Positions 41,272-64,000 of a stretch of DNA of 64,000 bases are shown one piece after another. Position 1 is the stretch's first letter. Each line of letters opens with the position of its first letter. The stretch spans positions 768 through 64,767 of the IMG/VR virus record IMGVR_UViG_3300021197_001180; one strand, 5' to 3'. The notes under the pieces are model-generated. The model saw only the letters and a list, made by a program, of their open reading frames with translations, had not been told where the DNA came from and searched no databases. The DNA is from a virus (lineage: Duplodnaviria; Caudoviricetes). The position numbers were made by a program, and so were the translations under genes.

Positions 41272-41532
41272 AAAGCCTCCTTGATCTTTGTTGCTTTGAA
41301 TAACGAAGTACCTTTACACTTCAAGAACTTTACATCCTTCATTAACTTAACTTCAAAGTTACCATCTATATCTACTACTACTGTGTATGTTGGTGTTGCC
41401 ATGTTTGTAATTCCTCTATTAATTGTTGTACTTCATTGTGATGGATTGTTAAGATATGTTCATCTGTCCCATAGGCCTTAAGGTCTTCAAGATTAAAGAT
41501 CCTAAGGTACTCTCCTTCAGCTTCAACTTCTA

Positions 41533-42037
41533 TCATATAAGTTCTTCTACATAACACCCAGCACTACAGGTAAGGTCTAACCCTCTATGTTCATGATCAA
41601 AACCCCAAGACCTAGTATCCTCCTGCCATTGATTAGTGTCTAAGTTCTTAATACCTAATTGTACTTCACTTACTTGTTGGAAGTATACACATAATATCAT
41701 ATAAGCTCCTCCATATCCCCTACAAAACTAGTCATTAAAGTTAACTGGGATAGATGCCACGTCCTTCCCTCAAAACTTATAGAACTAGTTTCAAAATTGT
41801 ATCTCTCTACTTCTTGATCAACTGTTAACGGTAGGTCAATCTCATCTAACTCATAGGCAAAGTGTTGTATCATATTAGTTCCTCCCCATCCTCAGAGCCA
41901 TCTTTAAATCCTTCCCAATGTCCCCTTCGCAAAGGATAAGGACCAGTGATATTAGCCCTGACTCCTGTTTGACATGTAAAGATTTCCTGTTCTTCATTAA
42001 AGTAGAACATAGTTAGTTGTCTAACAAAGTATTGCAT
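41533..42037 (-). CDS. EELI array 1: three coupled small ORFs (42037-41870, 41873-41697, 41700-41533; 55, 58, 55 aa)
   Basis: Translated by hand, below the ORF-track cutoff; each ends EELI-TGA overlapping the next ATG. Confidence 0.8.
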
Positions 42038-42614
42038 ATTGTTCCTTAAAATCTATATGTGATTGATACTGAATGTCCTTTAGTCCATTCGTCGTAAGGT
42101 GCTACAGTAATTCTAGAGTAGTGGGTGAATCTCCACCCTACTAGCACGTCCTCAACAGGCTCCCATTGTAGCCCTAAGATGTAACCTTCATCGTTGTCTG
42201 CATCATTAGCGAAATGTCCATCAGGGTCTATCCCCTCATAGTATTGTGGTACAGGTATTAAGTGTGTACCTATCCCAACCGCTAACCTAAACTGTTCTGT
42301 GATATCATACTTGTACAAAGCTTCAAAGGATACTACATACTTTAGCTTTACTGTTACATGCTCAAAGCGGCCTTCTGTATATAAGTCTTTACCTTTAATA
42401 TAACCAACACGTAGGCCGAAGTTGTTCCTCCAGATGCTGTAGCCTATCCCATATAATGTAGCCTCATACTGAGCATAGTTATCCTTGCCTCTCCAAGCAT
42501 GCTCAAAGTCTATCGCTGTGACATCAAATTCATGGAGATATCTAGGTTCCTCCGCTACGCTCCTGAAGGATAGTAATGTAAGTATTAATAGTAAGTATTG
42601 CATATTGTTCCTTA
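42027..42614. repeat. Exact 22-bp direct repeat AAGTATTGCATATTGTTCCTTA at 42027-42048 and 42593-42614
   Basis: Directly visible; each copy holds RBS plus ATG CAA TAC TT on the minus strand. Confidence 0.9.
42046..42603 (-). CDS. Outer-membrane beta-barrel protein (Lom/Ail/OmpA-like)
   Basis: Signal peptide MQYLLLILTLLSFRSVA, alternating beta-strands, C-terminal beta-signal SITYRF. Confidence 0.8.
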   Translation of the reverse strand: MQYLLLILTLLSFRSVAEEPRYLHEFDVTAIDFEHAWRGKDNYAQYEATLYGIGYSIWRNNFGLRVGYIKGKDLYTEGRFEHVTVKLKYVVSFEALYKYDITEQFRLAVGIGTHLIPVPQYYEGIDPDGHFANDADNDEGYILGLQWEPVEDVLVGWRFTHYSRITVAPYDEWTKGHSVSITYRF

Positions 42615-48423: not shown

Positions 48424-48670
48424 CTAATGATTCTTCTAACTTAAGACCAATAGGTATTATAATTACCACACCATTACACTTATTTCTTTTAAGCTTATCA
48501 GCACATTTAGTGGCTTGCCTTAAACACTTGTAGAACTCAGAGCCTCTAGGACTACAAGTCCAAGGGTCCTCTGTCTCTGATTCGGCAACTACTAAATACC
48601 GTGCCTTACCTATGAATTCTTTAAGTCTCATCTTCACTATCCTTAAACCCTGTAGATACCAACAGATCAT
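48413..48670 (-). CDS. Hypothetical protein
   Basis: ORF in operon; true start probably MRLKEF. Confidence 0.55.
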   Translation of the reverse strand: MICWYLQGLRIVKMRLKEFIGKARYLVVAESETEDPWTCSPRGSEFYKCLRQATKCADKLKRNKCNGVVIIIPIGLKLEESLDAG

Positions 48671-48911
48671 ATGCTGTTATCGTAGGATATTTCTTCAATG
48701 ATTTCCTTACCCACTTCCGAGTGAATGGAGTTAAGGTTGCCCTTCGCTCATCGTCATTCCCAGGAACAGGTGTCATTGTCACACCATCTGGCTGTACCAT
48801 AGCTAACAGTTCTCTATCTGTTAACTCCTTAGCTACTTCCTCGGTTAAGAAACCTCGATGTAACTGTATTAGGATCTCATTGACCCTCTTATTAAATTGT
48901 TGCTTGTTCAA
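48621..48911 (-). CDS. Hypothetical protein
   Basis: TTG start overlapping upstream EELI-TGA. Confidence 0.65.
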   Translation of the reverse strand: MNKQQFNKRVNEILIQLHRGFLTEEVAKELTDRELLAMVQPDGVTMTPVPGNDDERRATLTPFTRKWVRKSLKKYPTITAYDLLVSTGFKDSEDET

Positions 48912-49722
48912 ATTAATTCCTCCTCCATGTAGCCTATTAAGAAATCTAACGCATTAGATAAGGGAGTATTTAAGTTCTCATATCCAGGAGTTACTATAAT
49001 TGCGGACTGACCATCACCGCCTCTATAAGTTATAGTGAAGTCTTCCCTAGCAAAGTATCTCATATGAGTTCCTCCAAGTGTTCCCAACTTACTCTATCGT
49101 TCGCTAAGGTATTACTATTATCAGTATACCTAGCGAGAGTTGAGCTACTGGTACCCCCATAAGACATAAAGTATTCAATACGTAATGAACCTTCATCCGT
49201 ATATATGGCTACGTAGTCTCCTCCCTTACTAGTGGCTACTCTAGTTGTGTAGATCATTGTGCTGTTTCCTTAAATAATAATTCATATCCTTCAGGCTCCT
49301 CAAGAACTGGGGGTTCCAAGAGGCCCTCAACTAAGAGGTCCTCCAAGAGATAGGGGTCTATTTCAAAGTATTCATAGATCATATGAGTTCCTCTGCTTCA
49401 TTATCATCAAATCCATATCGAAGTTCATCCCTATAAGAATAACATCTTCTTGCATAATATCCAAGATGTGTGGTACTGATGAAGTAACCTATCCTAGGTA
49501 CTGTAGGCCTTGAACTATCATGACTAATTATAGCATCACTAGTTGCAAAATATTTAATCATATTAATTCCTCGTAATCATGAATTCTAATATCTTCATCG
49601 GCTGTCTCATTCCCTGATAAAGGATGAAAACCACTACAAAGAAAGAGGTCATTGAATTCCTTTCCAGTGCCATACTCATCATAGATAGCCTGAGTCAGAC
49701 CATTATACATTAAGTATCTCAT
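48908..49722 (-). CDS. EELI array 2: 49722-49558, 49561-49379, 49257-49060, 49063-48908, plus a non-EELI acidic 42-aa ORF at 49382-49254
   Basis: Hand translation; all coupled by ATGA/TTGA overlaps. Confidence 0.8.
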
Positions 49723-49880
49723 ACAATACCCTCATCTACAACAGTCATTCCTAGCCATCTTGCCATATCAATTATATCATCCTTGTTATAATGTATCTCC
49801 GTGCAAGTTGCTTCTACTTCAACTCTACTTCTATCTTCAGGGACATAAACATCCTCGATATCTTCATCACTAAGTTCCAT
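49719..49880 (-). CDS. Small acidic protein, 53 aa
   Basis: MELSDEDIED...VDEGIV; GAGG SD. Confidence 0.6.
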   Translation of the reverse strand: MELSDEDIEDVYVPEDRSRVEVEATCTEIHYNKDDIIDMARWLGMTVVDEGIV

Positions 49881-49883
49881 AAC

Positions 49884-50783: not shown

Positions 50784-51178
50784 AGGGCAACCCTCCATTC
50801 CGATGTGTCAAAGCCATGACGTGGAACATAATCCTCTTCAGTTGACTCTAACATTACAGTCTTAGATGGATAGACTGATTCATTTGGGATAACCCATGCC
50901 ATAGCTTTACCTACGACAAAGAATTCATCTACCTCTACAGGACTGTAGGGTTCAACTACACCATTCCTCATGGTCGTTAAGACTCCAAGAGTATACACTG
51001 TGCCTCTACGGCGATAGGTTCTCTTGGATGCTGTCTTTACCTGTACCTTAGTTGCAACCCCATCCTTCAAAGCAATAAAGTCACAGCGGGGTGTAGAGTC
51101 CATAGGGATGAACACTTCGTAACCACGCTCTGTGTAGTTTGCCATTGCTTTTAATTCGTTTACTGTACCTGTATTAAT
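50780..51178 (-). mobile_element. PD-(D/E)XK homing-endonuclease-like protein; proposed ATT start
   Basis: G..VFIP....CD.I...KVQVKT...Y...EVD.F; upstream in-frame NTGTVNELKA. Confidence 0.7.
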
Positions 51179-51393
51179 TATATTTCCTCCTGTTGTTTAA
51201 GCTCTTCTTGAGTCATCCACTCACCATCTTCTATGTGTCCTTTACTTACAAAGAACATAGGGGTTAGCCAACGACGTTCATACATATAAACATATAGACC
51301 TTTGTAATGAGGACCATACATACCACAAGGTATTGTATAGTCCCTTAGATCCATAAGTTCTTTAAGCTTACTAATTAGTGAGTGTCTGCCCAT
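51178..51393 (-). CDS. Hypothetical protein
   Basis: ORF overlapping the polymerase end. Confidence 0.5.
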   Translation of the reverse strand: MGRHSLISKLKELMDLRDYTIPCGMYGPHYKGLYVYMYERRWLTPMFFVSKGHIEDGEWMTQEELKQQEEI

Positions 51394-53258
51394 GTTGTAC
51401 CTTCCATTGCTTCACCTTCGATTGCTATCCGAGTCTTAAGTTCTTCACCAGCCTGAAGCATTGCAGCCTCACAGACCTGTTTGAATCTTTCAACATCCTT
51501 AATAGCTACATCGAATTGTCCTTCATCGTGGATATTACCTACTGCAAGAACGTCAAGTCCTTCAGCTTCTACTGCCTTCATTACATTACGTAACCAAACC
51601 TTCATGATTATAGCTCCACAACTCTGAAGTAAGCTGTTAAGTGCAGCATGTGCTGACCTAACTTTAACTCTGCGACCATCAATACCCTTAAGCCAACCAC
51701 GTTCAGCAGCATTTAGTACACCCTCTCTAAGTTTCTTAAGTGCTGGTGTGTTGTCAAGGAACCTCTTCTTAAGTCGCTTCCCATCCTTTGATGTTCCGCC
51801 TACTATAGATCCTATCTTAGCATCACCTGCTCCATATAAGAAAGCATATATGAAAGTCTTAGCTTGATTCCTAAAGTCTAACCCTGCTGCATGTTGGTTC
51901 GCAGTATGGATATCACCTGTTAAGATTAAGTCTGTGTACTCTGGGTCATTCATGTAGTGGGCTAAACAGCGAAGCTCAAGACCACTAGCATCACAGCCAA
52001 TTTGTTTCCTTCCTTCAGGTACAGTGAACAAAGCTCTACAGTCTGCACCATATGCACCTTCGAATCCCCAAAGTAACTTACCTTCCTTGTCTACTTTAGA
52101 TGCTGGAACCTGTGCTAAGTTAGGACCACTATGTGTCATCCTGCCTGTCACTGCCCCTAAGGTATTCACATACCCATGGATTCTATTAGTATCATCATTG
52201 AAGTTCTCTATCCATGAAGTTATCATAGACATACGTTTGGTTACCATGAAGTAATCAGCCAGTAATGTAGCCTCAGGGAACTGATCCCTGATAGCATCTA
52301 ACACTGGTTCATTAACTACTATGTTACCATTGTCCGTAAGAACCTTAGGCTTCCAGCCTCGATGTAACAACTGTTCAGCTATCTGTTGCCTACTACCTAG
52401 ATTAAACTCAGGCCAGTCAATCCTGGTGAAGCTACCACTAAGGTACTCCCTACCATACTGACCTTCAATATAATCAGGCTCAGGTATCAAGTCTTTAAAG
52501 TCCTCAAGGAACTTAAGACCCACCGAGCTTACACCTCCAGCCTTCAAGGCTCTAGGTTGTATCTCTTTGATCTGTTTAGGTAAAGGCTTAAAGGTCTTAT
52601 GCACTTCATCCTCAAGCTCCTGTATCTTCTCAGCTAACTGAGCGGATAACTCACAGGCTCCACGGATATTAAAGTACCAACCATTAGATTGTTGTTGAGC
52701 AATGTAACCAGCTATATCCATCTCTAGTTCTATGGAGTATTCTGTGAAACCTGATAACTCCTTCCTTAGAAGATTGTAAACTTCTACATTAACTCTTACA
52801 TCTTGTTGACAATACAATAACATCTCTTCACTGAATGTTTCCCAACCAGCATCCTCACCGAAGTCCCCTTTGTTTGCCTTGGCATAGTAGCCTAGGTTCA
52901 TTAAGGTATGTGGACCTACGATCTTCTTCTTCTGGTTGTGTTCATCCCAAACAGTCGTTGGACATTTAGGATGTAGAGACCTGTTCGTGTTACTAAGTCT
53001 ACTCATTACTAGAGTATCCATTAGCTTACCACTGAACTCAAAGTCATAGAGCTTCTTCAGGGCTGGCATGTCGTAGCCTATAATATTGTGGCCTACAAGG
53101 ACATCAGCTTCCTTTAGTTTCTCAAGACCTTTAAGGATCTCATCTGGTCTGTAACTAAATACTTCTCCTGTTCTTACATCCTCAATGACGATGCAGTGTA
53201 TCAGGGACACGGTATCTAATAGACCGTTAGCTTCTATATCGAAGCAATACTCTTTAAT
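51375..53258 (-). CDS. Family A DNA polymerase; proposed ATT start
   Basis: Exo I FDIEANGL upstream of the track start, HNIIGYD, TGRMTH, DASGLELR, AKTFIYAFLYG, IHDE. Confidence 0.95.
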   Translation of the reverse strand: MKEYCFDIEANGLLDTVSLIHCIVIEDVRTGEVFSYRPDEILKGLEKLKEADVLVGHNIIGYDMPALKKLYDFEFSGKLMDTLVMSRLSNTNRSLHPKCPTTVWDEHNQKKKIVGPHTLMNLGYYAKANKGDFGEDAGWETFSEEMLLYCQQDVRVNVEVYNLLRKELSGFTEYSIELEMDIAGYIAQQQSNGWYFNIRGACELSAQLAEKIQELEDEVHKTFKPLPKQIKEIQPRALKAGGVSSVGLKFLEDFKDLIPEPDYIEGQYGREYLSGSFTRIDWPEFNLGSRQQIAEQLLHRGWKPKVLTDNGNIVVNEPVLDAIRDQFPEATLLADYFMVTKRMSMITSWIENFNDDTNRIHGYVNTLGAVTGRMTHSGPNLAQVPASKVDKEGKLLWGFEGAYGADCRALFTVPEGRKQIGCDASGLELRCLAHYMNDPEYTDLILTGDIHTANQHAAGLDFRNQAKTFIYAFLYGAGDAKIGSIVGGTSKDGKRLKKRFLDNTPALKKLREGVLNAAERGWLKGIDGRRVKVRSAHAALNSLLQSCGAIIMKVWLRNVMKAVEAEGLDVLAVGNIHDEGQFDVAIKDVERFKQVCEAAMLQAGEELKTRIAIEGEAMEGTTWADTH

Positions 53259-53270
53259 ATTTCCTCCTTA

Positions 53271-54912
53271 TTATATTAGTTCTTCGCACTGTTCAGCGGA
53301 TAAGTAGTCTTCTCCGTTATTCGCAACAGAACCTTCTCGATACACCATAGTCTCATGACCTGAAGTCTGTGAATGATACTGAGTTGTGTTAGATTGTTCA
53401 TATACAATATCTATATAAGTATCTAAATTCTCTTCATCTCCGTAGATAGAAGCATATACATTCATATCAGTTCCTCCACTGACGCACCATGATTATCAAT
53501 GATGTTAGATAAAGATAAAGAAGAGGCTGTAAGATCATCGAAGCGTTCATCAACATGAGGATTATAAAGTAAACCACGGTGGGCATTGCTATCCATGTCT
53601 TCAGCTTCTATAAGATATGTCCAGTTACCTAATTCAAAGTAATAGTATCTCATATCAACTCCTCAGTTTCTGTATAATACCTATGGATATCAGACATTGT
53701 CATAGTCTGGACACCTGGAGTCAGCTGCTCAATACCATAAGTTCCCATAACTTGAGTCCTCTCAGGTCTCGCTATATCATCTTCACCATGGAATATATAG
53801 TCAGTACCTTCTAGGTGTAATTGAAAGTATCTCATATCAACTCCTCCCATCCTCTATGCAAGGGTTCACTATCACGTCTACGATATGCAATAGGTCCCTG
53901 CCAAGAGCTGTCACTATTACCCACAATCCTAACAGCTCCAGGAACCTTAAGATACACAGTACCTGTCTTGTATCTGTAGTACTTACCAACTTGAGCAATC
54001 ATATTAACTCCTCATAGATGGCTTCTTCAGATACACACCATTGATCTTGAGAATCCCATGGTATCTGTTCTCTGGAATTATTCCAAGAACATTCAGTTAC
54101 TAGGCCACAAGGAACCATGAAGTAATCTTCCTCCGATGGATACCAGAACTCTGTGAACTCTTGGACTGCTACTAACATACCTATTTGTACTTCGTCATAA
54201 GTCATATCAATTCCTCCACTCTACGATCTACACGTAAACCTGGCATAGTGTGTTCCAAGTCTTCCTTTTCTATAATCTCAGTATGCTGAGCTCCTTTATA
54301 TTTCTGCTTACAGATAGGATCCCTTCTAGAGTCACTATGATAGGAAACTATAAGAGATCCATTGGTCCTTATATAATTGGCCCATAAATAGTATCTCATA
54401 TCAGTTCCTCCCATCCTAACTGTCCTTGTACCACCTCCCAGTTAGAGAAGGCTATCGTCCATATAGAAGTAGAGGTTTGATACCTAAGAGTTTCTGAGAG
54501 GACTCCATCTTCATTTGGATTATCTGTATATGTAAAGTATCTCATATTAGTTCCTCCACATCACCTACTCTTCTCAATCCCTCGATAGACTTAAGTTGAG
54601 TAAGCCTACCCCGCATAATCTCAGTACTATTACGACGTAACTCCTGACAAGCTACAGGTTTGCTCCGCATCCCATTGAAGTTACTAGCAGTATACTTTGC
54701 TGTAAGTGTTATGCTACTACTATGATATATAAAGTATCTCATATGAGTTCCTCCGTATCCCTGTTTCGCTTACAGACATCAAGAGAAACCCCATCACTAG
54801 GGTCTATCCTCCACATACCTTGGACTCCCATAAAGAAAGTATCAGGATGTTCATAGAAATAATTTCTATATGTTAATTGTGTACCACTTTGGTACCTAAA
54901 GACTCTAACCAT
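53271..54912 (-). CDS. EELI array 3: nine coupled ORFs (54912-54739, 54742-54542, 54545-54396, 54399-54202, 54205-53999, 54002-53832, 53835-53650, 53653-53462, 53465-53271)
   Basis: All end EELI-stop; five begin MRY; two are absent from the ORF track because they are under 60 aa. Confidence 0.85.
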
Positions 54913-54928
54913 AATGGTAGCCTCTTGA

Positions 54929-56623
54929 TTAGTACTCAGTATCCTCGGGATCGTGGAGGAAATGAGAAACTTCTTCGTCGCCCCCAATCTCCAAAAGCCT
55001 ACCAGTCTCTGGGTCAAACCACAGGTGTGTGGCTATACCAGTCTGTCCAGTGTAACGAGACTTCAAGACCCTAACCTTCGTTAGGTTTGCTGCCTTCTCA
55101 CACTGTGCTTGTTGATCCCGCTCAAGTCCAATGACTGCATCACTTAACTGAGCTATAGATTGAGAACCCCTGAGGTGACTTAAGGAAACTTCAGAACCAT
55201 TCTCATGACCTTTGTCCCCACCAACCCTACGAAGGTGGCTCACCAAGAACATTGATATACCTGTCTCTTGAACTAACTGTCTTAGCTTAGTCATGATGGA
55301 GTCTATGTTCTTTCTTTCATCACCACCGTCTTCTTGCGACGAAACCACAATAGATAGATGGTCAAGAATAACACGCTTACATCCAAGAGCTTTAACCATA
55401 TATCTAATTTGAGCGATAAGATTATCACCAGATGTGGAACCGAAGTGATCGTAAGCAACCAACCTACCAGTGCCAGCAGTGGCTTTAAACGCTGCCTTAT
55501 AGTCTTCTTTCGAAACAAGGTCACGATATTTCTTCCTATGTAGTTGAGTGTTACAGTGGATACCCATGATCCCTTGGGTTGTCCTTACTGGTGTCTCCTC
55601 CAAAGCTAAGATACCAATCATATCTTTAGTCTCTGTCAACATCCAGTACTCTAGTTCCCTCATCACTGAGGATTTACCCATGCCACTACCTGAAGTAATG
55701 GTTACGAGTTCAGCATCCCTGATACCATCTAGCATCTCATTCAAACCAGCCCAAGGATATGGGATACTTGGTAACTCATCGTCAGCCAAGAGGTCATCAA
55801 AGATATCTGCTAAGTTAACGATACCATCAGGTGCCATCCTCTTACGATCCCAATAGCAGGATACAAATTCCTTTAAGTCTCCATGCTTAAGGTATTCATT
55901 AGGGTCATTATACTTAACAAGAGGTACTATGTGTGCCTTCCCTGGGGTCAATAGCATTGCTACTTCTTTAGCCTTCTCCTGTCCAGGCTTATCGTTATCG
56001 AAACATATAACAACTTCACCAAATCCTTCAATGAAATCTAAGTTTCTTTTGATATCCTTAACAGCAGAGCCAGTACCATTACATACAGAAACAACAGGGT
56101 CTCTCTTGTTTAGCATGTGGTACACAGACATAGCGTCAATCTCACCTTCAGTTATAACCAACCTCTTACCCTTGGTAGGGAATAGATGTTGACCAAACAA
56201 CCCAGAGTTCTGGTTGCTTCCTAAAGCTAAGATCTGTTTCTTACCTTCAATCCTTTCAGCCTTACAGACCTTACCACCTGACAATACACTACTATCTCGA
56301 TCTCTTAACGGGAAGAATACATCTCCCTTAGAAGTTAACCGTGTTCCGTAGTGTCTTAATATCTGTGCTGGGATATATCTGTGTTGGTCCTGAGAGAACT
56401 CAAATTCCTCGGGGACTTTAAAAGCTGAAGGGTTTGTAGGTGTTGTGGGTCTTTCAGTACCAGTACCATCAGAAGGCAGGAGGATTCCAGCCTGTTCATG
56501 GTATTGTTTGTTATCGAAAGGTGTATTACATTTATGGCAATATGCCCCACCATCAGTATAACTACTCACCGCATCACTTGAACCACATGCCGGACAAGGC
56601 AGTCCTGACTTAACGAAACTCAT
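54929..56623 (-). CDS. Primase-helicase (T7 gp4-like)
   Basis: CPACGSSD Zn finger, TEGEIDAM and [34 protein letters not shown]. Confidence 0.95.
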
Positions 56624-57135
56624 TCTATTTCCTCCCAATCTTTATACAGACTGAGGATCTCACGAGCGTAGTCAATCTTGTCTTTAACATATTGCCCAGC
56701 AGGTTGGTAGGTACTCCATAATTCTAGGTTACTTAATCTATTATCAGACCTGTTACCATTCTTATGATGTACATTCTCGTGTGCCTCTAAACAACGTCCT
56801 AAGTGTTGCTCCATCACTATACGATGATGAGCTTTCCGCTTACCTCCTCTATATACCTGTAAATATCCTCTACAGTCTATCTTAGGTTCTCCATCAATAG
56901 TCCTTAAAGTAATTAGAGGATCTCCATGTCTAAACTGTCTTGTGTAGTGCATATCACATAACCCTTTCGAGTGATGTTCATTCATGCAACCTTCTACACT
57001 ACAACCCACAGTACCTATAACCCTAAAGGGCACTGAAGCTGAGACATGGCCTGTTCTTTTAAGTCTGGAATAATGTCCTGAACAATATCCCTTAGACTTT
57101 GAGGGCTTATCACAGCCCTCAGCATTGCATGTTAT
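56620..57135 (-). mobile_element. HNH homing endonuclease with two CxxxGC Zn-binding repeats; proposed ATA start
   Basis: [22 protein letters not shown]; first repeat [17 protein letters not shown] lies upstream of the track start. Confidence 0.85.
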
Positions 57136-57283
57136 AACTTATTCTCCTAAGTCTAGTAAGGTTGAAGCAAACTTATGGATTGAATTCTTAAGCTCAACTA
57201 ACTCAAGCTCAAGTTCCTCAGTCCTTTCTTTTGCCTGAAGATAACCAGCATATGCTACTGCTAGTTCGTACTCCAGTTCCTCT

Positions 57284-57757
57284 CTAGTACTCTGTTTCTT
57301 CACCAGATTCTTCCGAAGCGGCTTGGAATGTAGGAGCATCATCATAGGCTTCGAATGAGAAAGCACCATTCTCTTCTACGACTTGTAAGGCTACTAAGTA
57401 ATTAGTTATACCAGACTTACCCATCATTGAGTAAGGTTTAGTTGTATAAACAACGTCTACTGTAGAGCCACGAGGGATCTCACGTAGTTGGTTGTCCGAA
57501 TCAACAAATGGTTTAGCATAACGATCAACACAAGCTTTAGGACTTGGCATGTACTTGGTTTTGAACTTAGCTTTGAACTGTTCATTGCCATTATACTCAC
57601 CTTTAGTTACTGATAACCCGTTAGCTTCTGCATCAGCAGCTTGCTCGGCAGTTAGAGTAATTGTAATCTCATACTTGTCACCTTTCTTTCCGTTGAACTC
57701 TGGAAATTCTGTGATGTTGCTGAATAATACTGTACCTAATTGTTTCTTCTGAGTCAT
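57284..57757 (-). CDS. Single-stranded DNA-binding protein (T7 gp2.5-like)
   Basis: EIPRGS.V, YLVALQVVE, acidic tail ending in an aromatic residue. Confidence 0.75.
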   Translation of the reverse strand: MTQKKQLGTVLFSNITEFPEFNGKKGDKYEITITLTAEQAADAEANGLSVTKGEYNGNEQFKAKFKTKYMPSPKACVDRYAKPFVDSDNQLREIPRGSTVDVVYTTKPYSMMGKSGITNYLVALQVVEENGAFSFEAYDDAPTFQAASEESGEETEY

Positions 57758-58221: not shown

Positions 58222-60039
58222 CTAGACTGTATACCGACGCAACAAGGTAGTCAACTCAGCAACATCACTTGAAGGTACACGGAAAGTGTTACCGTTAATA
58301 GTGAATGAAGTAGTTGCTTGTTGTGCGAGCTGTTGTTGCTCCTGTTGAATTCTGGTGAACTCTGTGGCTGCGATCTTTTGGATGCGAGCCTTGTTGATCC
58401 TGATCTCCTGACTACCATTCAATGGCATCATGATTACTTCATTGTTAGGATGATCAAGACGTACAATTGTACCTACAGTATTCACAGCTAAGCCATGACC
58501 ACCTGCACCAGATACAACCTTTAAGTTCTGGCCGTCCTGAAGGATACCATTACGTGCATCTCGCATCACTGGTTGTGAAGGATCAGCAGGTAATACATCT
58601 GAACTGTTAACTTCACCATCACTGAAGTGAGTAGTGTTATAGAACAGGATATCTTCTTCATGTTGTACACCTAAGTATACAGTACCAGAGTTTGCACCTG
58701 CTCGGATAGCTACGATCTCATGAGTACCTGTCGATAAGACACGAGACTCAGAGGTGAAGGTGGCACGACCTGTTGCATTAACATGGGTGTGATCAGATAA
58801 CATTACCACTCGCTCAGGTGACTCAGGTGGTACATCTAATGATGATAATGTACCATCAGATGGGCCTTCTAATACAACTGCTGGAGCTACTGGAGCTGCT
58901 GGAGCTACTGGAGCTGCTGGAGCTGCTGGAGCTACTGGAGCTGCTGGAGCTACTGGAGCTGCTGGAGCTGCTAAGGTAAAGTGTCGAGGCTGATATGGTG
59001 TTGAAGTACCACGATCATTAGTCACAAAGATAACTGTATTAGATACACGATTAACTGTGTATACATTACCACGTGTTAAGGTAGTAATACGGCTATCTGC
59101 TGGGCTAAAAGTTACTCGTTGACCTACTGCTGCTTGATTGATATTCATTTCTGTACTCTCCTGAGTGATTAAAGTTTCTTCTGTATCTGTTGATTGGGAG
59201 CCTTCAAATTCTGTAGGGTCCCAAGGAGTTATTGGAGTGGATGTTAAGAGTTCATTAAATGCTCTAGCATATCGCTCCAATGTTGTGCCTTCTAAACCAC
59301 AGGCTGTGTTTACTTCTACGATATAGAAACTCTCACGAGTTCTAATGATATCTACTGCACCGAAGTCCAGACCTAAAGAACTTACAGCTCTCACTGCCTG
59401 ATCAAGTACTCGTTGATTCTCCGACAGTTCCTGTAGCCTCTGACCTGAACGGACAAAGATAGTACCAGCGGCATGATTCATTATAGATCTATCACGCTCC
59501 TCACTAGGTACATCACTACGGAATGCTTTCCTTACAGCATCAATGACTACACCATTAACTACATGAACTCTAAACTCATGACGGGTATCAACACCCTTGG
59601 TATACAGAGGTGCTTGTACTACCTCTTCAGGTGTAGTAGCAATAACAATACCATCACCAGAGTTACCCTGTAAAGTGGTACGACAGTAGACTCTATGGCC
59701 TTGCTGTGTCCACTCACATGCAGCATTCCTTGAGGATGTGAATTCTAAGGCATCAACGTTACCTGCATTACTCCAAGTTCTAAAGGCATTTAGTTTGTTA
59801 GATGTTAACCTAACAGCTGAAGGTGCATTAAAGATCCTTGGAGACCCTTGGATATTACAGTTCCTAAGTAGATTAGATCTTGAAGATCCCCAGTTAATGA
59901 CTGTTGATACTGGTCGATTATAATAACCTCGGTCAGCTCTACGGTTAAAGTTCAAGTGACCCATAGCTCCTAAAGCTTCCCCTAAGGCAGTCTTTGAATC
60001 ACTTATACGGTTACCTAAGATCGCTAAGTTTCTAGGCAT
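58222..60039 (-). CDS. ATP-grasp ligase (RimK-like) with long C-terminal extension
   Basis: INWG, SNKL, EFRVHV, LGLDFGAVD, EVNTACG; then SH3-like repeats and PAAPVA linker. Confidence 0.88.
   Translation of the reverse strand: MPRNLAILGNRISDSKTALGEALGAMGHLNFNRRADRGYYNRPVSTVINWGSSRSNLLRNCNIQGSPRIFNAPSAVRLTSNKLNAFRTWSNAGNVDALEFTSSRNAACEWTQQGHRVYCRTTLQGNSGDGIVIATTPEEVVQAPLYTKGVDTRHEFRVHVVNGVVIDAVRKAFRSDVPSEERDRSIMNHAAGTIFVRSGQRLQELSENQRVLDQAVRAVSSLGLDFGAVDIIRTRESFYIVEVNTACGLEGTTLERYARAFNELLTSTPITPWDPTEFEGSQSTDTEETLITQESTEMNINQAAVGQRVTFSPADSRITTLTRGNVYTVNRVSNTVIFVTNDRGTSTPYQPRHFTLAAPAAPVAPAAPVAPAAPAAPVAPAAPVAPAVVLEGPSDGTLSSLDVPPESPERVVMLSDHTHVNATGRATFTSESRVLSTGTHEIVAIRAGANSGTVYLGVQHEEDILFYNTTHFSDGEVNSSDVLPADPSQPVMRDARNGILQDGQNLKVVSGAGGHGLAVNTVGTIVRLDHPNNEVIMMPLNGSQEIRINKARIQKIAATEFTRIQQEQQQLAQQATTSFTINGNTFRVPSSDVAELTTLLRRYTV
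58878..58972. repeat. 9-bp tandem repeat (CTGGAGCT[A/G]) encoding PAA/PVA linker
   Basis: Directly visible, about 10 copies. Confidence 0.9.
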
Positions 60040-60988
60040 TACGTCTCTCCATTCCACGTTGTGTCAATCTCTCTGTGTCTATGGTAGCCAACAGATTATT
60101 GAATGGTTGATGGTTTGTTGGAGGACTTACAGATCTTTCGGTCAATGAATGAACAAAGTCCTGAGCTGAACGGATACCTTTAAGGATATCATCTTCCACA
60201 CCACCATAACTAAGGATACCTTTGTAACCACCTAAGACTTCAGTGAATATAGAATCAATACCCATATCTTCTTTAGTCTGTAGGACATTCAAAGGTGTTA
60301 TGTTGTCACGCTCCATACAGTAAGCTTTAATTGACAGCAAAATATTTATCCAACGAATGATACTATTTTTATTAGCAGTACCTTCATGCATTCTAAACTC
60401 CAATGAACCATAACGTGGAACAGAGGATAGGTTAATACCTGCATACTTGGTAGCACTAGCAGTCCAAGCCTGACTGATAGCATTGTTACGACTATTCGTA
60501 GTACTATCAGCCTTATAGACCTTAGTGATTCTGTTAATCAAGTCTTGACAATCTAACAGAGACCAACAGAAATGATTGTTAGATCTATGCTCAGCCACAT
60601 ACTTGTACAACACTGGCTCAAACATTGCAGATAAGGTAATGAATGCCATCATCTGATTGAATGTCATGTCTCTGATATCAACGTGAACATGAACCGAAGT
60701 CCTTTCACTAAAGGCATTGTCTAAACTCTGACGCCCTTTGATAACATCAATCTCACATAAGGCCAAGAACAATTCATCCTGACACTTAGGTTTCTTTAAG
60801 ACAATCTCATAACCAGAGATAGACCCTTCACTTACACGATTCCAATGTGTTAGATTGGCTACAGCTTGTGAGCTAACCCCTTCCATCTCAATCTCTAAAC
60901 CCACAAAGGATTCAGATACAAAGATAGAACCACCCAGCGCACTAGGATGTGTCGGTGATGCCATACCTAATATACTATGCATATCCAT
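60032..60988 (-). CDS. Putative amidoligase
   Basis: VGLEIE, EGS, RTSVHVHVD, FE, KY..IN, GSLEFR. Confidence 0.85.
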   Translation of the reverse strand: MDMHSILGMASPTHPSALGGSIFVSESFVGLEIEMEGVSSQAVANLTHWNRVSEGSISGYEIVLKKPKCQDELFLALCEIDVIKGRQSLDNAFSERTSVHVHVDIRDMTFNQMMAFITLSAMFEPVLYKYVAEHRSNNHFCWSLLDCQDLINRITKVYKADSTTNSRNNAISQAWTASATKYAGINLSSVPRYGSLEFRMHEGTANKNSIIRWINILLSIKAYCMERDNITPLNVLQTKEDMGIDSIFTEVLGGYKGILSYGGVEDDILKGIRSAQDFVHSLTERSVSPPTNHQPFNNLLATIDTERLTQRGMERRNA

Positions 60989-61640
60989 GGCTTAACTCCT
61001 CTAAGATTTCAGTTAAGTATTCGTACTGCTCAAACAATACAGGTAAAGTTTCAGGTACTAAGCCCACTAACTTAGTCTTATAATACACAGCCACACCATA
61101 CTGAGGATGATTAGCTAAGGCAAACTTCTTACAGAATGCAATAGAGATAGCATCCCCTGAGACTATAGAACCTAAAGCCCTTGAGTATGTAGGGTAATGA
61201 TTATTAAACATGTTAGATAAAGTACTATGCTTACCTTGACGTGAGCTTGTGTCAATAGAAGTACTGAAGTAACGTGACTGTTCCTTACAGATGACATCAC
61301 GTTTAATGATATCAAAACTTAAGGAACGTTTAACTTGACGGCTTGCTCTGCCTTCATGCCATAAAGCCACAGTCTTTCGGGTTGCTCTACACTCTAGATT
61401 TCCCATCCCTAATTCTGGACGTTCAATTACTAGACGTGGATCATTCATCCTCACAGACTCATGGTTACCATTAAGTACATTACTATACTCTAAGGTAGGG
61501 TTACTTGAATCACCACCTACACCTTCAATATAGATAGGCTGGATGATACCTAATGAATCACGAAGACCCATGTAAGTACCACGATGACGCATCGAAGCAT
61601 CCCCTGAAGACCTAAAGCGTTGACGGAAATCTCTAGACAT
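60975..61640 (-). CDS. Conserved protein of the phage amidoligase operon
   Basis: P.LG..N, RQ.KR.L, AF...FA, YYK...VG pattern; coupled to neighbours. Confidence 0.7.
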   Translation of the reverse strand: MSRDFRQRFRSSGDASMRHRGTYMGLRDSLGIIQPIYIEGVGGDSSNPTLEYSNVLNGNHESVRMNDPRLVIERPELGMGNLECRATRKTVALWHEGRASRQVKRSLSFDIIKRDVICKEQSRYFSTSIDTSSRQGKHSTLSNMFNNHYPTYSRALGSIVSGDAISIAFCKKFALANHPQYGVAVYYKTKLVGLVPETLPVLFEQYEYLTEILEELSHGYA

Positions 61641-62451
61641 TTGGCACCTCATCTAATTGATATTGATCCATAAGATCCAAGGCATACTGTTGATCTGACA
61701 TATCAATAGTGTTAGCTACTGCATCATTCTCAATCCGTAAGCCCCCAAGGAAAGCTCGTAAAGCTTCAGCTGTTTGAGTATACACCCAACGCATTGTATC
61801 CTCTGACTTTAACCAGAAGTTACTAAGCACTCGGTACTCAAGGCCGTAAGGTTTAACACGTAAAGCACCAGCCTTACCATATAGTTCACGACGCTTGGCA
61901 TCAGAGTCTAAAAGAAGAGAAGGTACACCTAAGTATAGGTCAAGTACCTTAGTCAGTTCACAACAAACATTGATATAGTCTGGATTGTCGATGTCCTGAT
62001 TCTCTGTCCATCCAATGTGCACATGCCCTGCCGCTGTCCTGAAGGGTACTTCAGCATCCGGCTTAGGGTTATCTTTACCTGTATAGGCATTGAGATCTGA
62101 GGAACAACCAAGTTCTTTGGCTTGCTCAGGTTGCTTGTCGATGTATTCCTTACCGAAGTTAGCAGTAGGAATTACAGACAGCGTTACACCATTTGGAAGT
62201 TGACCCACTAATTGCTTCATCACTGAGGTAATCTTCTCTACGAAGTCTTCCTCTGATTGAGCAGGGTCAATGTTAAACTCTAATGCCATCCCATCTACTT
62301 GGATTGCACCATCCTTGACAGGATAAGGGTTATCTTTATCTCCCTTAACCATGCCATATGCTGAACACAATACACCACGTCGGGATGCAAAGACTTCAGG
62401 GTCAGCACCAACCTGAAGATTTAATTCATTACCGTCAACTGAAATTTTCAT
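61633..62451 (-). CDS. phiEco32-like COOH-NH2 ligase type 2
   Basis: VGADPEVF, QVDGMALEFN, ELGC, RTAAGHVHIG, RRELYGKAG, KPYGLEYRVLSNFW. Confidence 0.92.
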   Translation of the reverse strand: MKISVDGNELNLQVGADPEVFASRRGVLCSAYGMVKGDKDNPYPVKDGAIQVDGMALEFNIDPAQSEEDFVEKITSVMKQLVGQLPNGVTLSVIPTANFGKEYIDKQPEQAKELGCSSDLNAYTGKDNPKPDAEVPFRTAAGHVHIGWTENQDIDNPDYINVCCELTKVLDLYLGVPSLLLDSDAKRRELYGKAGALRVKPYGLEYRVLSNFWLKSEDTMRWVYTQTAEALRAFLGGLRIENDAVANTIDMSDQQYALDLMDQYQLDEVPNV

Positions 62452-62452
62452 A

Positions 62453-62680
62453 TCAATAACTCATGTTTGCTAGGTGAAAATGACAAGGCCCACATAGATA
62501 CCGAGTATCATTGAGCCAATAAATATCTGAGGCTTTCGAGGCATCATTCGCGGGTTCACAACACTGATCACATCCCTCATCTACTAAGTCTAACCAGACT
62601 TTATAAGGTAGTTGATCGTCATTGGGCCCGATAACTGTGAGATTATCAGACCCGTCTACTTTGAACCCATAGTTCCTTGA
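62453..62680 (-). CDS. Zn-ribbon C-terminal segment of the GATase, in the -1 frame
   Basis: ...GPNDDQLPYKVWLDLVDEGCDQC...IYWLNDTRYLCGPC; no start or SD of its own. Confidence 0.6.
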   Translation of the reverse strand, partial: SRNYGFKVDGSDNLTVIGPNDDQLPYKVWLDLVDEGCDQCCEPANDASKASDIYWLNDTRYLCGPCHFHLANMSY

Positions 62681-64000
62681 GCAAAGTCATCCCAAGGCAT
62701 GTTGTATGTCACTGTACCAAGAGTAACAAACAAATTAACTATGTTGTTTATCTTCTTGATGTAAGAGATAGTGTAACGATGGTTACTTGGAACACCAATC
62801 TTACTACCTAAGAACACTGCCGTACCGCCTTCAGCTACAACTGAATCATCTTTAAGATGTACAACCTTCTCATCTTTCTTCAGGTTTGCCGCTGTATCTT
62901 TAGGTACTTGATCCATCTGCCATTCATAATCATCAAGCTTCGCCTTCCTAAGGTTCATCTTAGATAATATAACAGAGAATTCACCCATTTTATCATCATC
63001 AAAGTCTTGGTCTGCTTTAAGATCTTTAGGAGCTTCAAAGCCTACGATGTATGAAGAGATCATACCATTGGTAAGACGTACAGTCTCATCAAATTCCTTT
63101 TGAGTAACACCATGTACTATAGTATTACAGTAAGGGTAATCCATTGAGATACCTTGAGCCTGACCATGCTGACTACCATCTTGATAAGGTTTCCATTCAG
63201 TCAAGAATGTACCAACCCTTTCATCTAATAGCATAGCACCTGGGTCGATGTCGATAAGACCTATAAACTCACGGATCACATCGTTATCTTTACCTTTAGC
63301 ATTAATGACTTTAGCTGTGGCTGCCTTCAGTTCTTCTTCCTTAGTAGGGCCGAAACTGTATTCAGTAACCTTTTCCTTAGCGGCAGTTGTGGTTGTACTG
63401 GTGCTGGAAGTAGAGCTAGCTGACCTCCTGTTATACCCATAGGTGGTAGCAGGTGCGGTATAGAGTTCTACTTCTTTCATTTCTAATTTAGATAAGTCAA
63501 TACCTACATTAGTAATTGGGACTGAAAGCCATTGGCCTACAGGTAACTCAAAGATCTCATCGTAATCTATAGGACTACGAGTAAATGTATCACGATTAAG
63601 TGACCACACTAACATATCCATCTCACTAGCCCAATACATCTTGTTGGTCTTAGTGTTCATAGCTATCGCCATTGGACGCTGAGAGTTCCTTACGAAGTTC
63701 AAAGTATCAGTGTTTGAATCAACCCACACTAAAGTAAATGCACCTTTAAGTTTCTTGATCACAGTTTCAGGATCATTAAGTTCTAAAGATCTACAGATAG
63801 CTTCACTATCTACTGTGTAGTTCTCACCTGTTGGAGTTAAGTCACCCCAAGAAGTTAAAGAACCATTGTGAACCATAGAGATATGACCATGTTCAAAAGG
63901 GTGAGCATTCTTATGTTCAGTTGCTGCACCTTTAGTTGCATGGCGGTTATGTCCTATAGACACAGTGTTCTGTAAGAAACCTACTAGTTCCTGCTGGACT
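62656..64000 (-). CDS. Ntn-type glutamine amidotransferase (class II), 5'-truncated at the window edge
   Basis: IGHNRHAT, NAHPF, VHNGSL, VDSE, GAFTLVW, RN..RP, WASE; frame open to 64000. Confidence 0.9.
   Translation of the reverse strand, partial: VQQELVGFLQNTVSIGHNRHATKGAATEHKNAHPFEHGHISMVHNGSLTSWGDLTPTGENYTVDSEAICRSLELNDPETVIKKLKGAFTLVWVDSNTDTLNFVRNSQRPMAIAMNTKTNKMYWASEMDMLVWSLNRDTFTRSPIDYDEIFELPVGQWLSVPITNVGIDLSKLEMKEVELYTAPATTYGYNRRSASSTSSTSTTTTAAKEKVTEYSFGPTKEEELKAATAKVINAKGKDNDVIREFIGLIDIDPGAMLLDERVGTFLTEWKPYQDGSQHGQAQGISMDYPYCNTIVHGVTQKEFDETVRLTNGMISSYIVGFEAPKDLKADQDFDDDKMGEFSVILSKMNLRKAKLDDYEWQMDQVPKDTAANLKKDEKVVHLKDDSVVAEGGTAVFLGSKIGVPSNHRYTISYIKKINNIVNLFVTLGTVTYNMPWDDFAQGTMGSK

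What the first reader, a model, noticed from the sequence alone, without database searches (positions are those of the whole stretch)
53271..54912. A family of 16 dissimilar microproteins sharing an invariant C-terminal EELI, in three tandem cassette arrays
Seen in the sequence: nine consecutive 49-68 aa ORFs between helicase and polymerase, four at 48908-49722 and three at 41533-42037 all end E-E-L-I-stop. Many start MRYF/MRYY/MRYL/MQYF/MIKYF, and the interiors show no obvious similarity. The junction consensus GGAGGAAYTNATATGAGATACTT packs SD, EELI, stop and the next start together. EE and I could be forced by the SD and the ATGA overlap, but the Leu is not. It is kept in 16 of 16 using all six codons (CTC, CTA, CTG, CTT, TTA, TTG). 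The last gene of array 3 keeps EELI (GAA GAA CTA ATA TAA) without an SD or overlap. Inference: EELI is selected as a peptide, perhaps a docking tag for one host or phage partner, a degron, or a strand pairing with the N-terminal RYF strand. The junction may also act as a microhomology for swapping cassettes, giving an integrase-free array of variable effectors such as anti-defence proteins. I do not recognise this as a described system.
Basis: partly seen in the sequence, partly recalled or inferred. Interest (0 to 1): 0.92.

Follow-up and report, generated by a model that had tools for sequence, protein, structure and literature searches.

The report
Lysine-poor phage microproteins ending EELI
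A small marine phage and its closest relatives carry rows of tiny, fast-changing, lysine-poor proteins that all keep the same short tail, an undescribed common end-piece whose reader is unknown but might be the phage's own unexplained ligase genes.

Summary
Sixteen minus-strand ORFs of 49-68 aa, in three tandem arrays, end E-E-L-I. The junction packs the Shine-Dalgarno (SD) site, the tail, the stop and the next start.

The tail is not a by-product of coupling:
- Five non-overlapped ends in three related phages keep it with other codons.
- Leu at position -2 (second residue from the C-terminus) is kept in 43 of 43 tails across four phages.
- None of 256 ATGA junctions in about 160 other phage loci ends E-x-L-[IV].

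The family occurs only in this small clade: the window, two metagenomic relatives, and a variant in Pseudoalteromonas phage Slicky01. It has no database relatives. It grows by tandem duplication, and the bodies diverge at dN/dS of 0.4 or more.

A new finding is that the bodies are purged of lysine (1.2-1.9% against 5.5-7.5%). The phage's RimK-like ATP-grasp ligase, encoded about 3 kb upstream, is too.

My reading is a diversifying accessory family with a peptide-selected C-terminal handle. Its GAG-GAR codons double as the next gene's SD. The function is unproven. The boldest surviving reading is that these proteins are carboxylate donors or clients of the lysine-depleted ligase cassette.

The scan has noted similar shared-tag arrays in other phages before.

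The parts
54739..54912 (-). a3_1, 57 aa, MVRVFRY...DTEELI; first gene after the primase-helicase
   Evidence: tail GAG GAA CTC ATA TGA overlaps the next ATG
54542..54742 (-). a3_2, 66 aa, MRYF...VEELI
   Evidence: recovered by the profile search as its own family member
54396..54545 (-). a3_3, 49 aa, MRYF...WEELI
54202..54399 (-). a3_4, 65 aa, MRYY...VEELI (start taken at the ATGA overlap)
53999..54205 (-). a3_5, 68 aa, MTYDEV...YEELI, net charge -14, no Lys
   Evidence: the only match among 5.8 billion proteins is itself
53832..54002 (-). a3_6, 56 aa, MIAQVGKYY...WEELI
   Evidence: ESM Atlas gives weak leads only
53650..53835 (-). a3_7, 61 aa, MRYF...TEELI, no Lys
   Evidence: AF2 model with pLDDT 62 puts the tail in a strand
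53462..53653 (-). a3_8, 63 aa, MRYYYF...VEELI, no Lys
53271..53465 (-). a3_9, 64 aa, MNVY...CEELI; last gene of array 3, not overlapped
   Evidence: GAA GAA CTA ATA TAA; the SD of the polymerase gene lies after the stop
49719..49880 (-). a2_0, 53 aa, acidic, ends DEGIV; coupled head of array 2 without the tail
49558..49722 (-). a2_1, 54 aa, MRYL...YEELI
49379..49561 (-). a2_2, 60 aa, MIKYF...AEELI
49254..49382 (-). a2_x, 42 aa, strongly acidic interposed ORF ending KETAQ; a similar acidic ORF sits at the same place in L211
   Evidence: E 0.014 to L211 17241-17366
49060..49257 (-). a2_3, 65 aa, MIYTT...LEELI
48908..49063 (-). a2_4, 51 aa, MRYF...EEELI; last gene of array 2, no ATG overlap
   Evidence: GAG GAA TTA ATT TGA
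41870..42037 (-). a1_1, 55 aa, MQYF...GEELI
41697..41873 (-). a1_2, 58 aa, MIQHF...MEELI
41533..41700 (-). a1_3, 55 aa, ...VEELI with GAA GAA (no GGAG) although the next ORF overlaps
41378..41536 (-). a1_4, 52 aa, acidic, coupled ORF without the tail
58222..60057 (-). Long-form RimK-like ATP-grasp protein, 611 aa with 7 Lys and 48 Arg. It is the candidate reader or enzyme, same strand, about 3 kb upstream of array 3.
   Evidence: Pfam RimK E 1e-4; Lys counts
60032..63963 (-).
Evidence: Pfam; conserved in G001, Slicky01 and L211.
42027..42048 (-). Exact 22-bp repeat (RBS plus ATG CAA TAC TT) at the start of a1_1. Its twin at 42593-42614 starts the inserted OMP beta-barrel gene 42046-42603.
   Evidence: D8, 100%; OMP_b-brl E 6e-7; gene absent from G001 and Slicky01

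Best explanation
These are real, translationally coupled genes of one lineage-specific, fast-evolving family of small accessory proteins. The arrays grow by tandem duplication. The bodies then diverge almost freely or under diversifying selection, but they stay open, rich in Tyr and Arg, and nearly free of Lys.

The C-terminal end is hydrophobic-E-x-L-[I/V] (EELI in this phage), and it is held by selection on the peptide. Its GAG GAR codons are also used as the Shine-Dalgarno site of the next gene, and ATA-TGA overlaps the next ATG. So one 15-nt junction serves three purposes.

I commit to this reading: the tail is a common handle, a short terminal strand or peptide with a free carboxylate, presented by every member to one shared partner. 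The variable bodies give different specificities in host takeover or counter-defence.

Shown: the coding, the coupling anatomy, the peptide-level constraint, the clade restriction, the duplication and divergence, and the lysine purge.
Inferred: the existence of a reader, and the host-directed role.
For: 1. Anatomy.
- 16 of 16 tails are EELI, and 14 overlap the next start by ATGA with GGAGG 7 nt upstream.

2. Peptide-level constraint.
- Five non-overlapped ends keep the tail with other codons. These are the window's a3_9 (GAA GAA CTA ATA TAA) and a2_4 (..TTA ATT TGA), G001's last gene (GAA TTA TTA ATT TAG), and L211's first (GAA GAA CTT ATC TAG) and last genes.
- Leu at -2 is kept in 16 of 16 (window), 11 of 11 (G001), 13 of 13 (L211) and 3 of 3 (Slicky01). 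In G001 position -3 varies freely (D, S, Y, E, R, L, M).

3. Controls.
- None of the 10 other ATGA junctions in the window ends L-I.
- None of 256 distinct ATGA junctions in about 160 other loci ends E-x-L-[IV]. Leu at -2 occurs in 22 of 256.
- The 8 junctions with GAGGAR in the same register end EEIE (twice), EESA, EESI, EESL, EEIK, EEVG and EEKV.

4. Real genes.
- GC by codon position is 0.47/0.41/0.30, against 0.51/0.40/0.32 in long genes.

5. Family dynamics.
- Paralogue pairs in L211 are 75, 53, 40 and 36% identical.
- There are no cassette orthologues between phages whose polymerases are 66-74% identical.
- Nei-Gojobori dN/dS of the pairs is 7.9 (13.5 non-synonymous against 0.5 synonymous differences), 0.86, 0.72 and 0.42.

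6. A trait shared beyond sequence.
- Lys is 16 of 867 residues (1.8%) in the window family, 12 of 637 in G001 and 7 of 594 in L211. Other small ORFs have 7.5% and long proteins 5.5%. Fisher P is 2e-11 against other small ORFs and 3e-7 against long proteins.
- Amino-acid compositions of the window and G001 families correlate at r 0.81.

7. Strict invariance of L and I/V on bodies that otherwise drift fits a read-out motif better than a mere edge strand.
Against: - No partner is identified.
- Sizes are narrow (49-68 aa here). N-termini look like a beta strand in all three phages (MRYFxY, xRVVFR, MIYRxR). Both AF2 models, though of low confidence (pLDDT 62 and 58), put the last four residues in a paired strand. 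The tail could therefore simply close a common small fold.
- E at -4 is GAG in 14 of 16, so part of the conservation is the SD.
- The excess of dN over dS in the youngest pair rests on 14 differences (binomial P 0.04-0.17).
- There is no expression data.
Confidence: 0.5

Rival explanations
1. Fold closure only. The family is one small beta scaffold in which the C-terminal strand (V-E-E-L-I) pairs with the N-terminal strand (R-Y-F-x-Y). The conserved ends are structural plus SD, and no common reader exists. The loops between them diversify as small binders.
For: - AF2 models of a3_7 and of the G001 ORF at L012 9742-9939 place the last four residues in a strand, with N-terminal hairpins.
- The size range is narrow.
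- N-termini are beta-like in the window, G001 and L211.
- The Slicky01 paralogues end in strand-like FRVTILE and YNITVLE.
- The Tyr/Arg/Trp-rich, Lys/Ala-poor composition resembles binding surfaces (the comparison itself is recalled).
Against: - Both models have low confidence.
- Edge strands normally tolerate L/I/V/F exchange, yet Leu is 43 of 43.
- dN/dS of 0.4-0.9 or more on the bodies is high for a folded scaffold.
- 37-40 aa members exist in G001 and L211.
- It does not explain the lysine purge.
Confidence: 0.25
2. Ligase clients. The microproteins are carboxylate donors (protein tags) or dedicated substrates of the phage's own ATP-grasp/amidoligase cassette. The tail is the enzyme's recognition element. 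Lysine is purged from enzyme and clients to avoid self-conjugation.
For: - The ATP-grasp protein is lysine-depleted in all genomes examined: window 7 of 611, G001 5 of 616, Slicky01 5 of 628, L211 15 of 600, PaP3 (short form) 5 of 296.
- The microprotein arrays are the other lysine-poor set in the window. Besides them, only one 99-aa ORF and a few structural proteins fall below 2.5%.
- The long form of the ATP-grasp, about 600 aa and matched to residue 611, was found only in array-bearing phages. That is 2 of 80 ATP-grasp loci in IMG/VR (L211 and L217, which is G001), plus the window and Slicky01.
- Cassette, helicase, array and polymerase lie on one strand with no excess of terminator-like sites.
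- R2K ATP-grasp enzymes of phages were predicted to modify proteins of unknown identity (PMC4431377, passages).
Against: - This is co-occurrence within one clade, so one evolutionary event.
- The cassette is widespread in phages without such arrays (313 phage records; 78 of 80 loci).
- RimK-type enzymes act on terminal Glu-Glu, whereas here EE is followed by L-I.
- No structural or biochemical link was obtained.
- Lysine loss could have another cause, such as translation under tRNA-Lys attack or escape from a host Lys-directed system.
Confidence: 0.12
3. Pure by-product. EELI is only what the optimal SD, spacer and ATGA junction happen to encode, copied by duplication or gene conversion.
For: - GGAGG lies at a fixed 7-nt spacing.
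- E at -4 is enriched at SD-bearing ATGA junctions in general (41 of 91).
- ATA is the only Ile codon compatible with the overlap.
- AGA and TAC are used in 7 of 7 MRY starts.
Against: - Uncoupled ends keep the tail.
- Leu uses six codons, so there is no homogenisation.
- No other junction, including those in the same register, gives L-I.
- The median longest exact match between junctions is 7 nt.
Confidence: 0.04
4. Degron or timer, or a packaging tag. The tail directs all members to a host protease for timed removal. [quoted passage not shown]
For: - The tail has a non-polar last two residues and a free carboxylate.
- The analogy is to diverse T-even internal proteins that share only a capsid-targeting sequence (PMC3012670, passages).
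Against: - Two acidic residues lie just before the end.
- The genes sit in the replication module, on the strand opposite to the virion genes.
- No prohead protease or cleavage motif was examined.
- Nothing was tested directly.
Confidence: 0.07

Closest known systems
Capsid-targeting sequence (CTS) of the T4 internal proteins (PMC3012670, passages read)
   Same: A set of highly diverse small phage proteins shares only one short terminal peptide, a common address on variable payloads. The payloads act against host defence.
   Different: The CTS is N-terminal, about ten residues (length recalled), cleaved by the prohead protease, and directs packaging. Here the peptide is C-terminal, four to five residues, embedded in a coupling junction and located in the replication module. 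Neither packaging nor cleavage is shown.
PeSL cassettes of T4-type hyperplastic regions (PMC2839356 and PMC4122927, search listing and abstract starts only)
   Same: Short conserved regulatory sequences lie between small variable ORFs. Gene content differs between close relatives.
   Different: PeSLs are promoter plus stem-loop motifs between genes. Here the repeat is coding (tail, stop, start) with an SD. Promoter-like and terminator-like sites are at or below shuffle level (19 against 23.8, and 4 against 4.0). Shuffling is not shown.
phiEco32-type amidoligase/ATP-grasp cassette (Pfam COOH-NH2_lig, Amidoligase_2, RimK). Iyer et al. 2009 was seen only as a reference entry in PMC4431377; its content is recalled.
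   Same: The cassette is present upstream on the same strand and has been functionally unexplained since its description. A protein-modifying role has been predicted.
   Different: No link to small tagged proteins has been described. The ATP-grasp protein here is a long form of about 600 aa, not the 250-300 aa form.
Lysine deserts of ubiquitin- and pupylation-system components (PMC10169902 and PMC10665810, abstract starts)
   Same: Selective absence of lysine in proteins that work next to Lys-directed conjugation.
   Different: Those cases are eukaryotic or actinobacterial, with a known conjugation chemistry. Here the chemistry is unknown and the signature is whole-protein depletion in 40-77 aa proteins.
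Small non-essential genes between the helicase and polymerase genes of T7 (4.x genes; recalled, no call)
   Same: Same genomic niche in a T7-like replication module. The helicase and SSB here both end in acidic tails with a terminal Tyr.
   Different: The T7 4.x proteins share no common tail and are not an expanded family.

Membership tests
Translationally coupled overlapping genes (internal SD plus ATGA) | Stop of the upstream gene overlaps the start of the downstream gene, with an SD inside the upstream coding sequence at working distance | tested here: met
   14 of 16 tails: GGAGG, a 7-nt spacer, and ATG overlapping TGA
T4 internal-protein CTS system | Shared tag at the N-terminus | tested here: not met
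   The invariant peptide is C-terminal. N-termini are only partly alike (7 of 16 MRY)
T4 internal-protein CTS system | Tag removed by the prohead protease and proteins found in virions | not testable with these tools
   Needs virion proteomics
PeSL cassettes | Early promoter plus stem-loop terminator between cassettes | tested here: not met
   Consensus scan of 48500-57500 gives 19 promoter-like sites against 23.8 in shuffles, and 4 terminator-like against 4.0. None recurs at junctions
Ubiquitin-like or Pup-like modifiers | C-terminal Gly-Gly or Gly-Gly-Gln/Glu | tested here: not met
   Tails are E-x-L-[IV]
Ubiquitin-like or Pup-like modifiers | Dedicated carboxylate-amine ligase encoded with the modifier | tested here: inconclusive
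   ATP-grasp, Amidoligase_2 and COOH-NH2_lig lie on the same strand 3-9 kb upstream. No functional link was tested
RimK substrates (ribosomal protein S6 type) | Glu-Glu as the last two residues (recalled) | tested here: not met
   EE sits at -4 and -3 and is followed by L-I. The Slicky01 variants end in a single Glu
Any Pfam or PHROGs family | Significant profile match | tested here: not met
   0 of 16 members hit PHROGs at E 0.1. Pfam gives only two chance-level hits (E 0.19 and 0.32). The profile of 27 members against 1.84 billion representatives gave 8 hits: 7 own members and 1 repeat protein
LENE-tailed SH3-like small proteins of another cassette-bearing phage (L218) | Profile-profile similarity | tested here: not met
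   hhalign of A4 against A6 gives probability 0.04

The most novel reading that the evidence does not exclude
The E-x-L-[IV] microproteins are a repertoire of phage-made protein tags or clients for the lysine-depleted long-form ATP-grasp/amidoligase cassette.
- The enzyme would recognise the common C-terminal tail and activate its carboxylate.
- It would then join the microprotein to amines (lysines) of host targets chosen by the variable body.
- Lysine would be purged from enzyme and tags to prevent self-ligation.

This would be a phage-encoded, ubiquitin-like conjugation system with many interchangeable modifiers. It would also give the phiEco32-type cassette its first substrates.
Probability: 0.12. 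Interest if true: 0.92.

Novelty: new variant of a known kind. Interest (0 to 1): 0.7.

Why it matters
About one gene in six of this 65-kb phage belongs to a family that no database knows.

Its anatomy shows how one 15-nt junction can be protein tail, ribosome-binding site, stop and start at once, and still be under peptide selection.

The lysine purge is shared with the ATP-grasp ligase. This turns a long-unexplained phage gene cassette into a testable hypothesis with named candidate substrates.

Slicky01, which infects Pseudoalteromonas tunicata, is a cultured relative in which to test it.

Together with similar tag arrays seen elsewhere in this scan, and here in three further phages, it points to a general design in phage accessory genes that is not yet in print: a common tag on a variable body.

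Tried and rejected
- **Pfam and PHROGs on all 16 members:** nothing usable.
- **Search for homologues of a3_5 among 5.8 billion proteins:** only itself.
- **ESM Atlas:** a3_6 scored 0.84 or below, leads only, with DUF1653 on 13% of one cluster. The C-terminal half of the ATP-grasp gave no usable hit.
- **Exact junction pattern in IMG/VR:** 2 loci, about the chance number.
- **Three double-junction scans:** 5, 9 and 14 loci. Of the 24 distinct loci, only the one from G001's contig is a true array of this family. In-frame pairs also appeared in L180, L184, L186 and L208, and another tag family in L203.
- **DNA similarity of array 3 to 50,697 phage records:** no match.
- **Complex prediction of the neighbours a3_2 and a3_3:** no answer (score 0.00, mark 0.34, controls not folded). 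This is no evidence either way.
- **AF2 on two paralogue alignments:** pLDDT 62 and 58. This is too low for fold searches, so I ran none.
- **Sequencing runs:** no RNA holder listed. Contigs of X1 (probably the source sample) and two 151-nt contigs of X2 lie on the arrays without joints at the junctions. This is uninformative on cassette swapping.
- **Candidate reader by phyletic pattern:** the weak TPR hit of ORF 47376-47675 is below Pfam's cut-off, and I rejected it on reading the sequence. ORF 8702-9319 (61% identical to G001, absent from Slicky01) has no family.
- **NHL or 'Pizza' propeller match of the ATP-grasp C-half:** it is one 28-residue stretch aligned six times to a designed repeat, so no propeller is shown. 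Pfam is blank on that half.
- **Shared proteins between the window and G002 (the phage with VEELI tails):** none relevant, and no ATP-grasp.
- **The single-protein scan with the ATP-grasp C-half:** found nothing.
- **Arg codon choice in the family:** not unusual.
- **Paper searches:** 'EELI' with 'C-terminal' and 'phage' gave 0 papers. 'Slicky01' gave one preprint, listing only. These two searches are the only basis for 'not in print'. Supplementary files were not consulted.
Full report
**Context**

The window is bases 768-64767 of a 64,767-nt IMG/VR virus record rated complete. It is a T7-like-replisome podophage. Virion genes lie on the plus strand and early and replication genes on the minus strand. 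The closest isolate is Pseudoalteromonas phage Slicky01, with 68% polymerase identity. Vibrio phage CHOED and Aeromonas phage 1233 follow at about 51%.

**Observation**

The ORF listing and my own scan find 16 minus-strand ORFs ending EELI, at the stated places. With starts set at the ATGA overlaps they are 49-68 aa. The junction GAGGARYTNATATGA, with up to 1 mismatch, occurs 15 times, all on the minus strand, against 0.17 expected. Fourteen tails overlap the next start. GGAGG lies 7 nt before that ATG.

Seven members begin ATG AGA TAC. MAFFT finds only E, E, L and I invariant, with a mean column identity of 22%. All-against-all BLAST finds no significant similarity between members. Array 2 also contains two coupled ORFs without the tail, and array 1 continues into one.

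**Is the tail forced by the junction?**

It is not.

- *Uncoupled ends.* Ends that are not overlapped keep the peptide with other codons. In the window these are GAA GAA CTA ATA TAA (a3_9) and GAG GAA TTA ATT TGA (a2_4).
- *Window control.* The 10 other ATGA junctions of the window end FAL, SKS, EIE, GIV, TAQ, TTR, ESL, LCQ, YGK and ELL.
- *Wider control.* In about 160 loci of polymerase relatives, 256 distinct ATGA junctions gave no E-x-L-[IV] ending. Leu at -2 occurred in 22 and E at -4 in 54. The 8 junctions with GAGGAR in the same register end EEIE (twice), EESA, EESI, EESL, EEIK, EEVG and EEKV.

So the SD explains E-E. It does not explain L-I.

**Relatives**

G001 is a 66,406-nt IMG/VR contig (L012; L094 is the same phage) with 66% polymerase identity. 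It has ten ORFs between helicase and polymerase. Nine end EDLI, ESLI, EDLV, EYLI, EELV, EELI, ERLV, EYLI or ELLI, and one ends ERLE. Two 37-aa ORFs after the exonuclease end EMLI and EELI. The last gene of the main array is uncoupled and reads GAA TTA TTA ATT TAG. G001 has no counterpart of array 1.

L211 is a 22-kb contig found through the ATP-grasp alignment. It is the closest relative, with polymerase at 73.8% and helicase at 75.8% identity.
- It has ten ORFs between helicase and polymerase: EELI eight times, EELL once, EQLL once.
- After the exonuclease it has the same layout as the window's array 2: an acidic ORF, EELI, EELI, an acidic ORF, EELI.
- Its first gene is uncoupled: GAA GAA CTT ATC TAG.

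Slicky01 has three ORFs at the same place, ending ELLE, TILE and TVLE. CHOED and Aeromonas phage 1233 have nothing between helicase and polymerase.

Leu at -2 is therefore kept in 43 of 43 tails. The invariant core is E-x-L-[I/V/L], or L-E in Slicky01.

**Reach of the family**

A profile of the 27 members was searched against 1.84 billion representatives. It returned eight proteins at E of 0.001 or better: seven are members themselves and one is an unrelated repeat protein. Pfam, PHROGs and the word-index search found nothing.

**Evolution**

No cassette of the window has an orthologue in G001, Slicky01 or any other locus. The only hints are two marginal hits to L211, at E 3.7e-4 and 0.014.

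Inside L211, paralogue pairs at 75, 53, 40 and 36% identity show tandem duplication. Their Nei-Gojobori dN/dS values are 7.9 (13.5 non-synonymous against 0.5 synonymous differences; binomial P 0.04-0.17), 0.86, 0.72 and 0.42. The bodies are thus weakly constrained or diversifying while the ends stay fixed.

GC by codon position matches the phage's long genes, so these are resident coding genes.

**Lysine purge (new)**

| Set | Lys | Share |
|---|---|---|
| Window family bodies | 16 of 867 | 1.8% |
| G001 family | 12 of 637 | 1.9% |
| L211 family | 7 of 594 | 1.2% |
| Other small ORFs of the window | 208 of 2779 | 7.5% |
| Long proteins of the window | 790 of 14,468 | 5.5% |
| Random translation of this DNA | – | about 6% expected |

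Arg (7.0%) and Tyr (8.1%) are raised and Ala (4.0%) is lowered. In sequences drifting this fast, low lysine needs specific selection.

The other strongly lysine-poor non-structural proteins of the window are the 611-aa RimK-like ATP-grasp protein (7 Lys, 48 Arg) and a 99-aa ORF next to array 1 (0 Lys, 13 Arg).

The ATP-grasp protein is equally depleted elsewhere: G001 5 of 616, Slicky01 5 of 628, L211 15 of 600, and the short form of Pseudomonas phage PaP3 5 of 296. PaP3's amidoligase has 7 of 398. An earlier scan note on another genome had reported lysine loss in this cassette, and I confirm it in five genomes.

It lies on the same strand upstream of helicase, array 3 and polymerase.

The long form of the ATP-grasp was found only with arrays: the window, Slicky01, and 2 of the 80 ATP-grasp loci kept from IMG/VR (L211, and L217 which is G001). 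ELI arrays were found in those same two loci only.

This is one clade, hence one event, and the cassette is common in phages without arrays. The link is a lead, not a result.

**Structure**

AF2 on two paralogue alignments gave low-confidence all-beta or beta-rich models (pLDDT 62 and 58). In both, the last four residues form a paired strand. This keeps the fold-closure rival alive.

**Recombination**

An exact 22-bp repeat (RBS plus ATG CAA TAC TT) starts both a1_1 and the adjacent OMP beta-barrel gene. That gene is absent from relatives. This fits insertion at a translation-initiation repeat.

Junction pairs share at most 24 and 21 nt, with a median of 7. Exchange of cassettes at junctions is possible but not shown.

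**Comparable cases met here**

- L203, an unrelated phage with a family A polymerase, ends at least 12 dissimilar ORFs of 73-167 aa in [YHF]-P-E-[YFL]-[FLA]-[IVL]. Several are uncoupled.
- G002, a 117-kb Firmicute-type phage, ends five proteins of three body kinds in F-x-G-V-E-E-L-I(-A), with synonymous variation.
- L218, another cassette-bearing T7-like phage, interleaves about 15 SH3-like ORFs ending [ST]-L-E-N-E with its ligase genes. These are not lysine-poor and show no profile similarity to the EELI family.

The scan's own notes list at least eight further shared-tag arrays in other phages. This finding is thus one more instance of a recurring design that I could not find described in print. 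It is distinguished by the triple-use junction and the lysine link.

**Verdict**

Peptide selection on the tail is supported. The function is unknown.

| Reading | My odds |
|---|---|
| Common C-terminal handle on diversifying accessory proteins | about 0.5 |
| Fold closure only | about 0.25 |
| Ligase clients | about 0.12 |
| Degron or packaging tag | about 0.07 |
| Junction by-product | about 0.04 |

Noticed in passing
L203 (IMG/VR contig, 26 kb), 1930-14606: At least 12 dissimilar plus-strand ORFs (73-167 aa) in a replication module end [YHF]-P-E-[YFL]-[FLA]-[IVL]. They use varied codons and stops, and several are not overlapped. This is an independent C-terminal tag family, and two members lie directly upstream of a family A polymerase.
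   Followed up: partly
L002 = G002:103.9-117.4 kb (117-kb IMG/VR contig): Five tandem proteins of three body kinds (SH3-like 84 aa, DUF5688 188 aa, and a 130-135 aa trio) end F-x-G-V-E-E-L-I, two with an extra Ala. Synonymous variation is present. The phage has no ATP-grasp.
   Followed up: partly
L218 (IMG/VR contig, 47.6 kb), 1279-16523: About 15 SH3-like ORFs of 70-90 aa end [ST]-L-E-N-E (YTG GAG AAY GAR stop, with the SD inside). They are interleaved with the amidoligase cassette, helicase and polymerase. They are not lysine-poor.
   Followed up: partly
window 42027-42048 and 42593-42614: An exact 22-bp direct repeat (RBS plus the first 11 coding bases) brackets an OMP_b-brl gene (42046-42603) that is absent from G001 and Slicky01. 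It looks like the footprint of an insertion at a start-region repeat.
   Followed up: partly
window 40972-41271 (-): A 99-aa ORF with 0 Lys and 13 Arg lies downstream of array 1. Its G001 homologue has 2 Lys and 14 Arg. There is no family match.
   Followed up: partly
L012 13631-14488 and L001 23140-23922: A lysine-poor, Arg-rich protein of 285 aa (5 Lys, 23 Arg) in G001 and 260 aa (4 Lys, 20 Arg) in Slicky01. The two are homologous to each other (E 1e-8). It sits after the exonuclease, where the window has array 2, and is absent from the window.
   Followed up: partly
window 54929-56638 and 57284-57757 (-): The primase-helicase and the SSB-like protein both end in an acidic tail with T-E-Y. 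This recalls the polymerase-docking tails of T7 gp4 and gp2.5 (recalled). It is a second, different C-terminal motif in the same module.
   Followed up: no
window 58222-59157 (-), residues 520-547 of the ATP-grasp protein: A single NHL-blade-like stretch matches designed 'Pizza' propellers. The low E-value comes from one stretch aligned six times. The roughly 300-aa C-terminal extension is otherwise unassigned.
   Followed up: yes
window 4687-4763 (-): The only tRNA gene is tRNA-Arg (CCT). Slicky01 also carries a tRNA-Arg. This may be relevant to the Arg-for-Lys bias, but Arg codon choice in the family is not unusual.
   Followed up: partly
L184 7307-7665, L186 5227-5678, L208 7197-7630: Adjacent coupled ORF pairs in other phages end AGEKLI/AGEKLI, FGEGLV/FGEELV and LEELI/LEELI. 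They look like paralogue pairs with similar junction logic.
   Followed up: no
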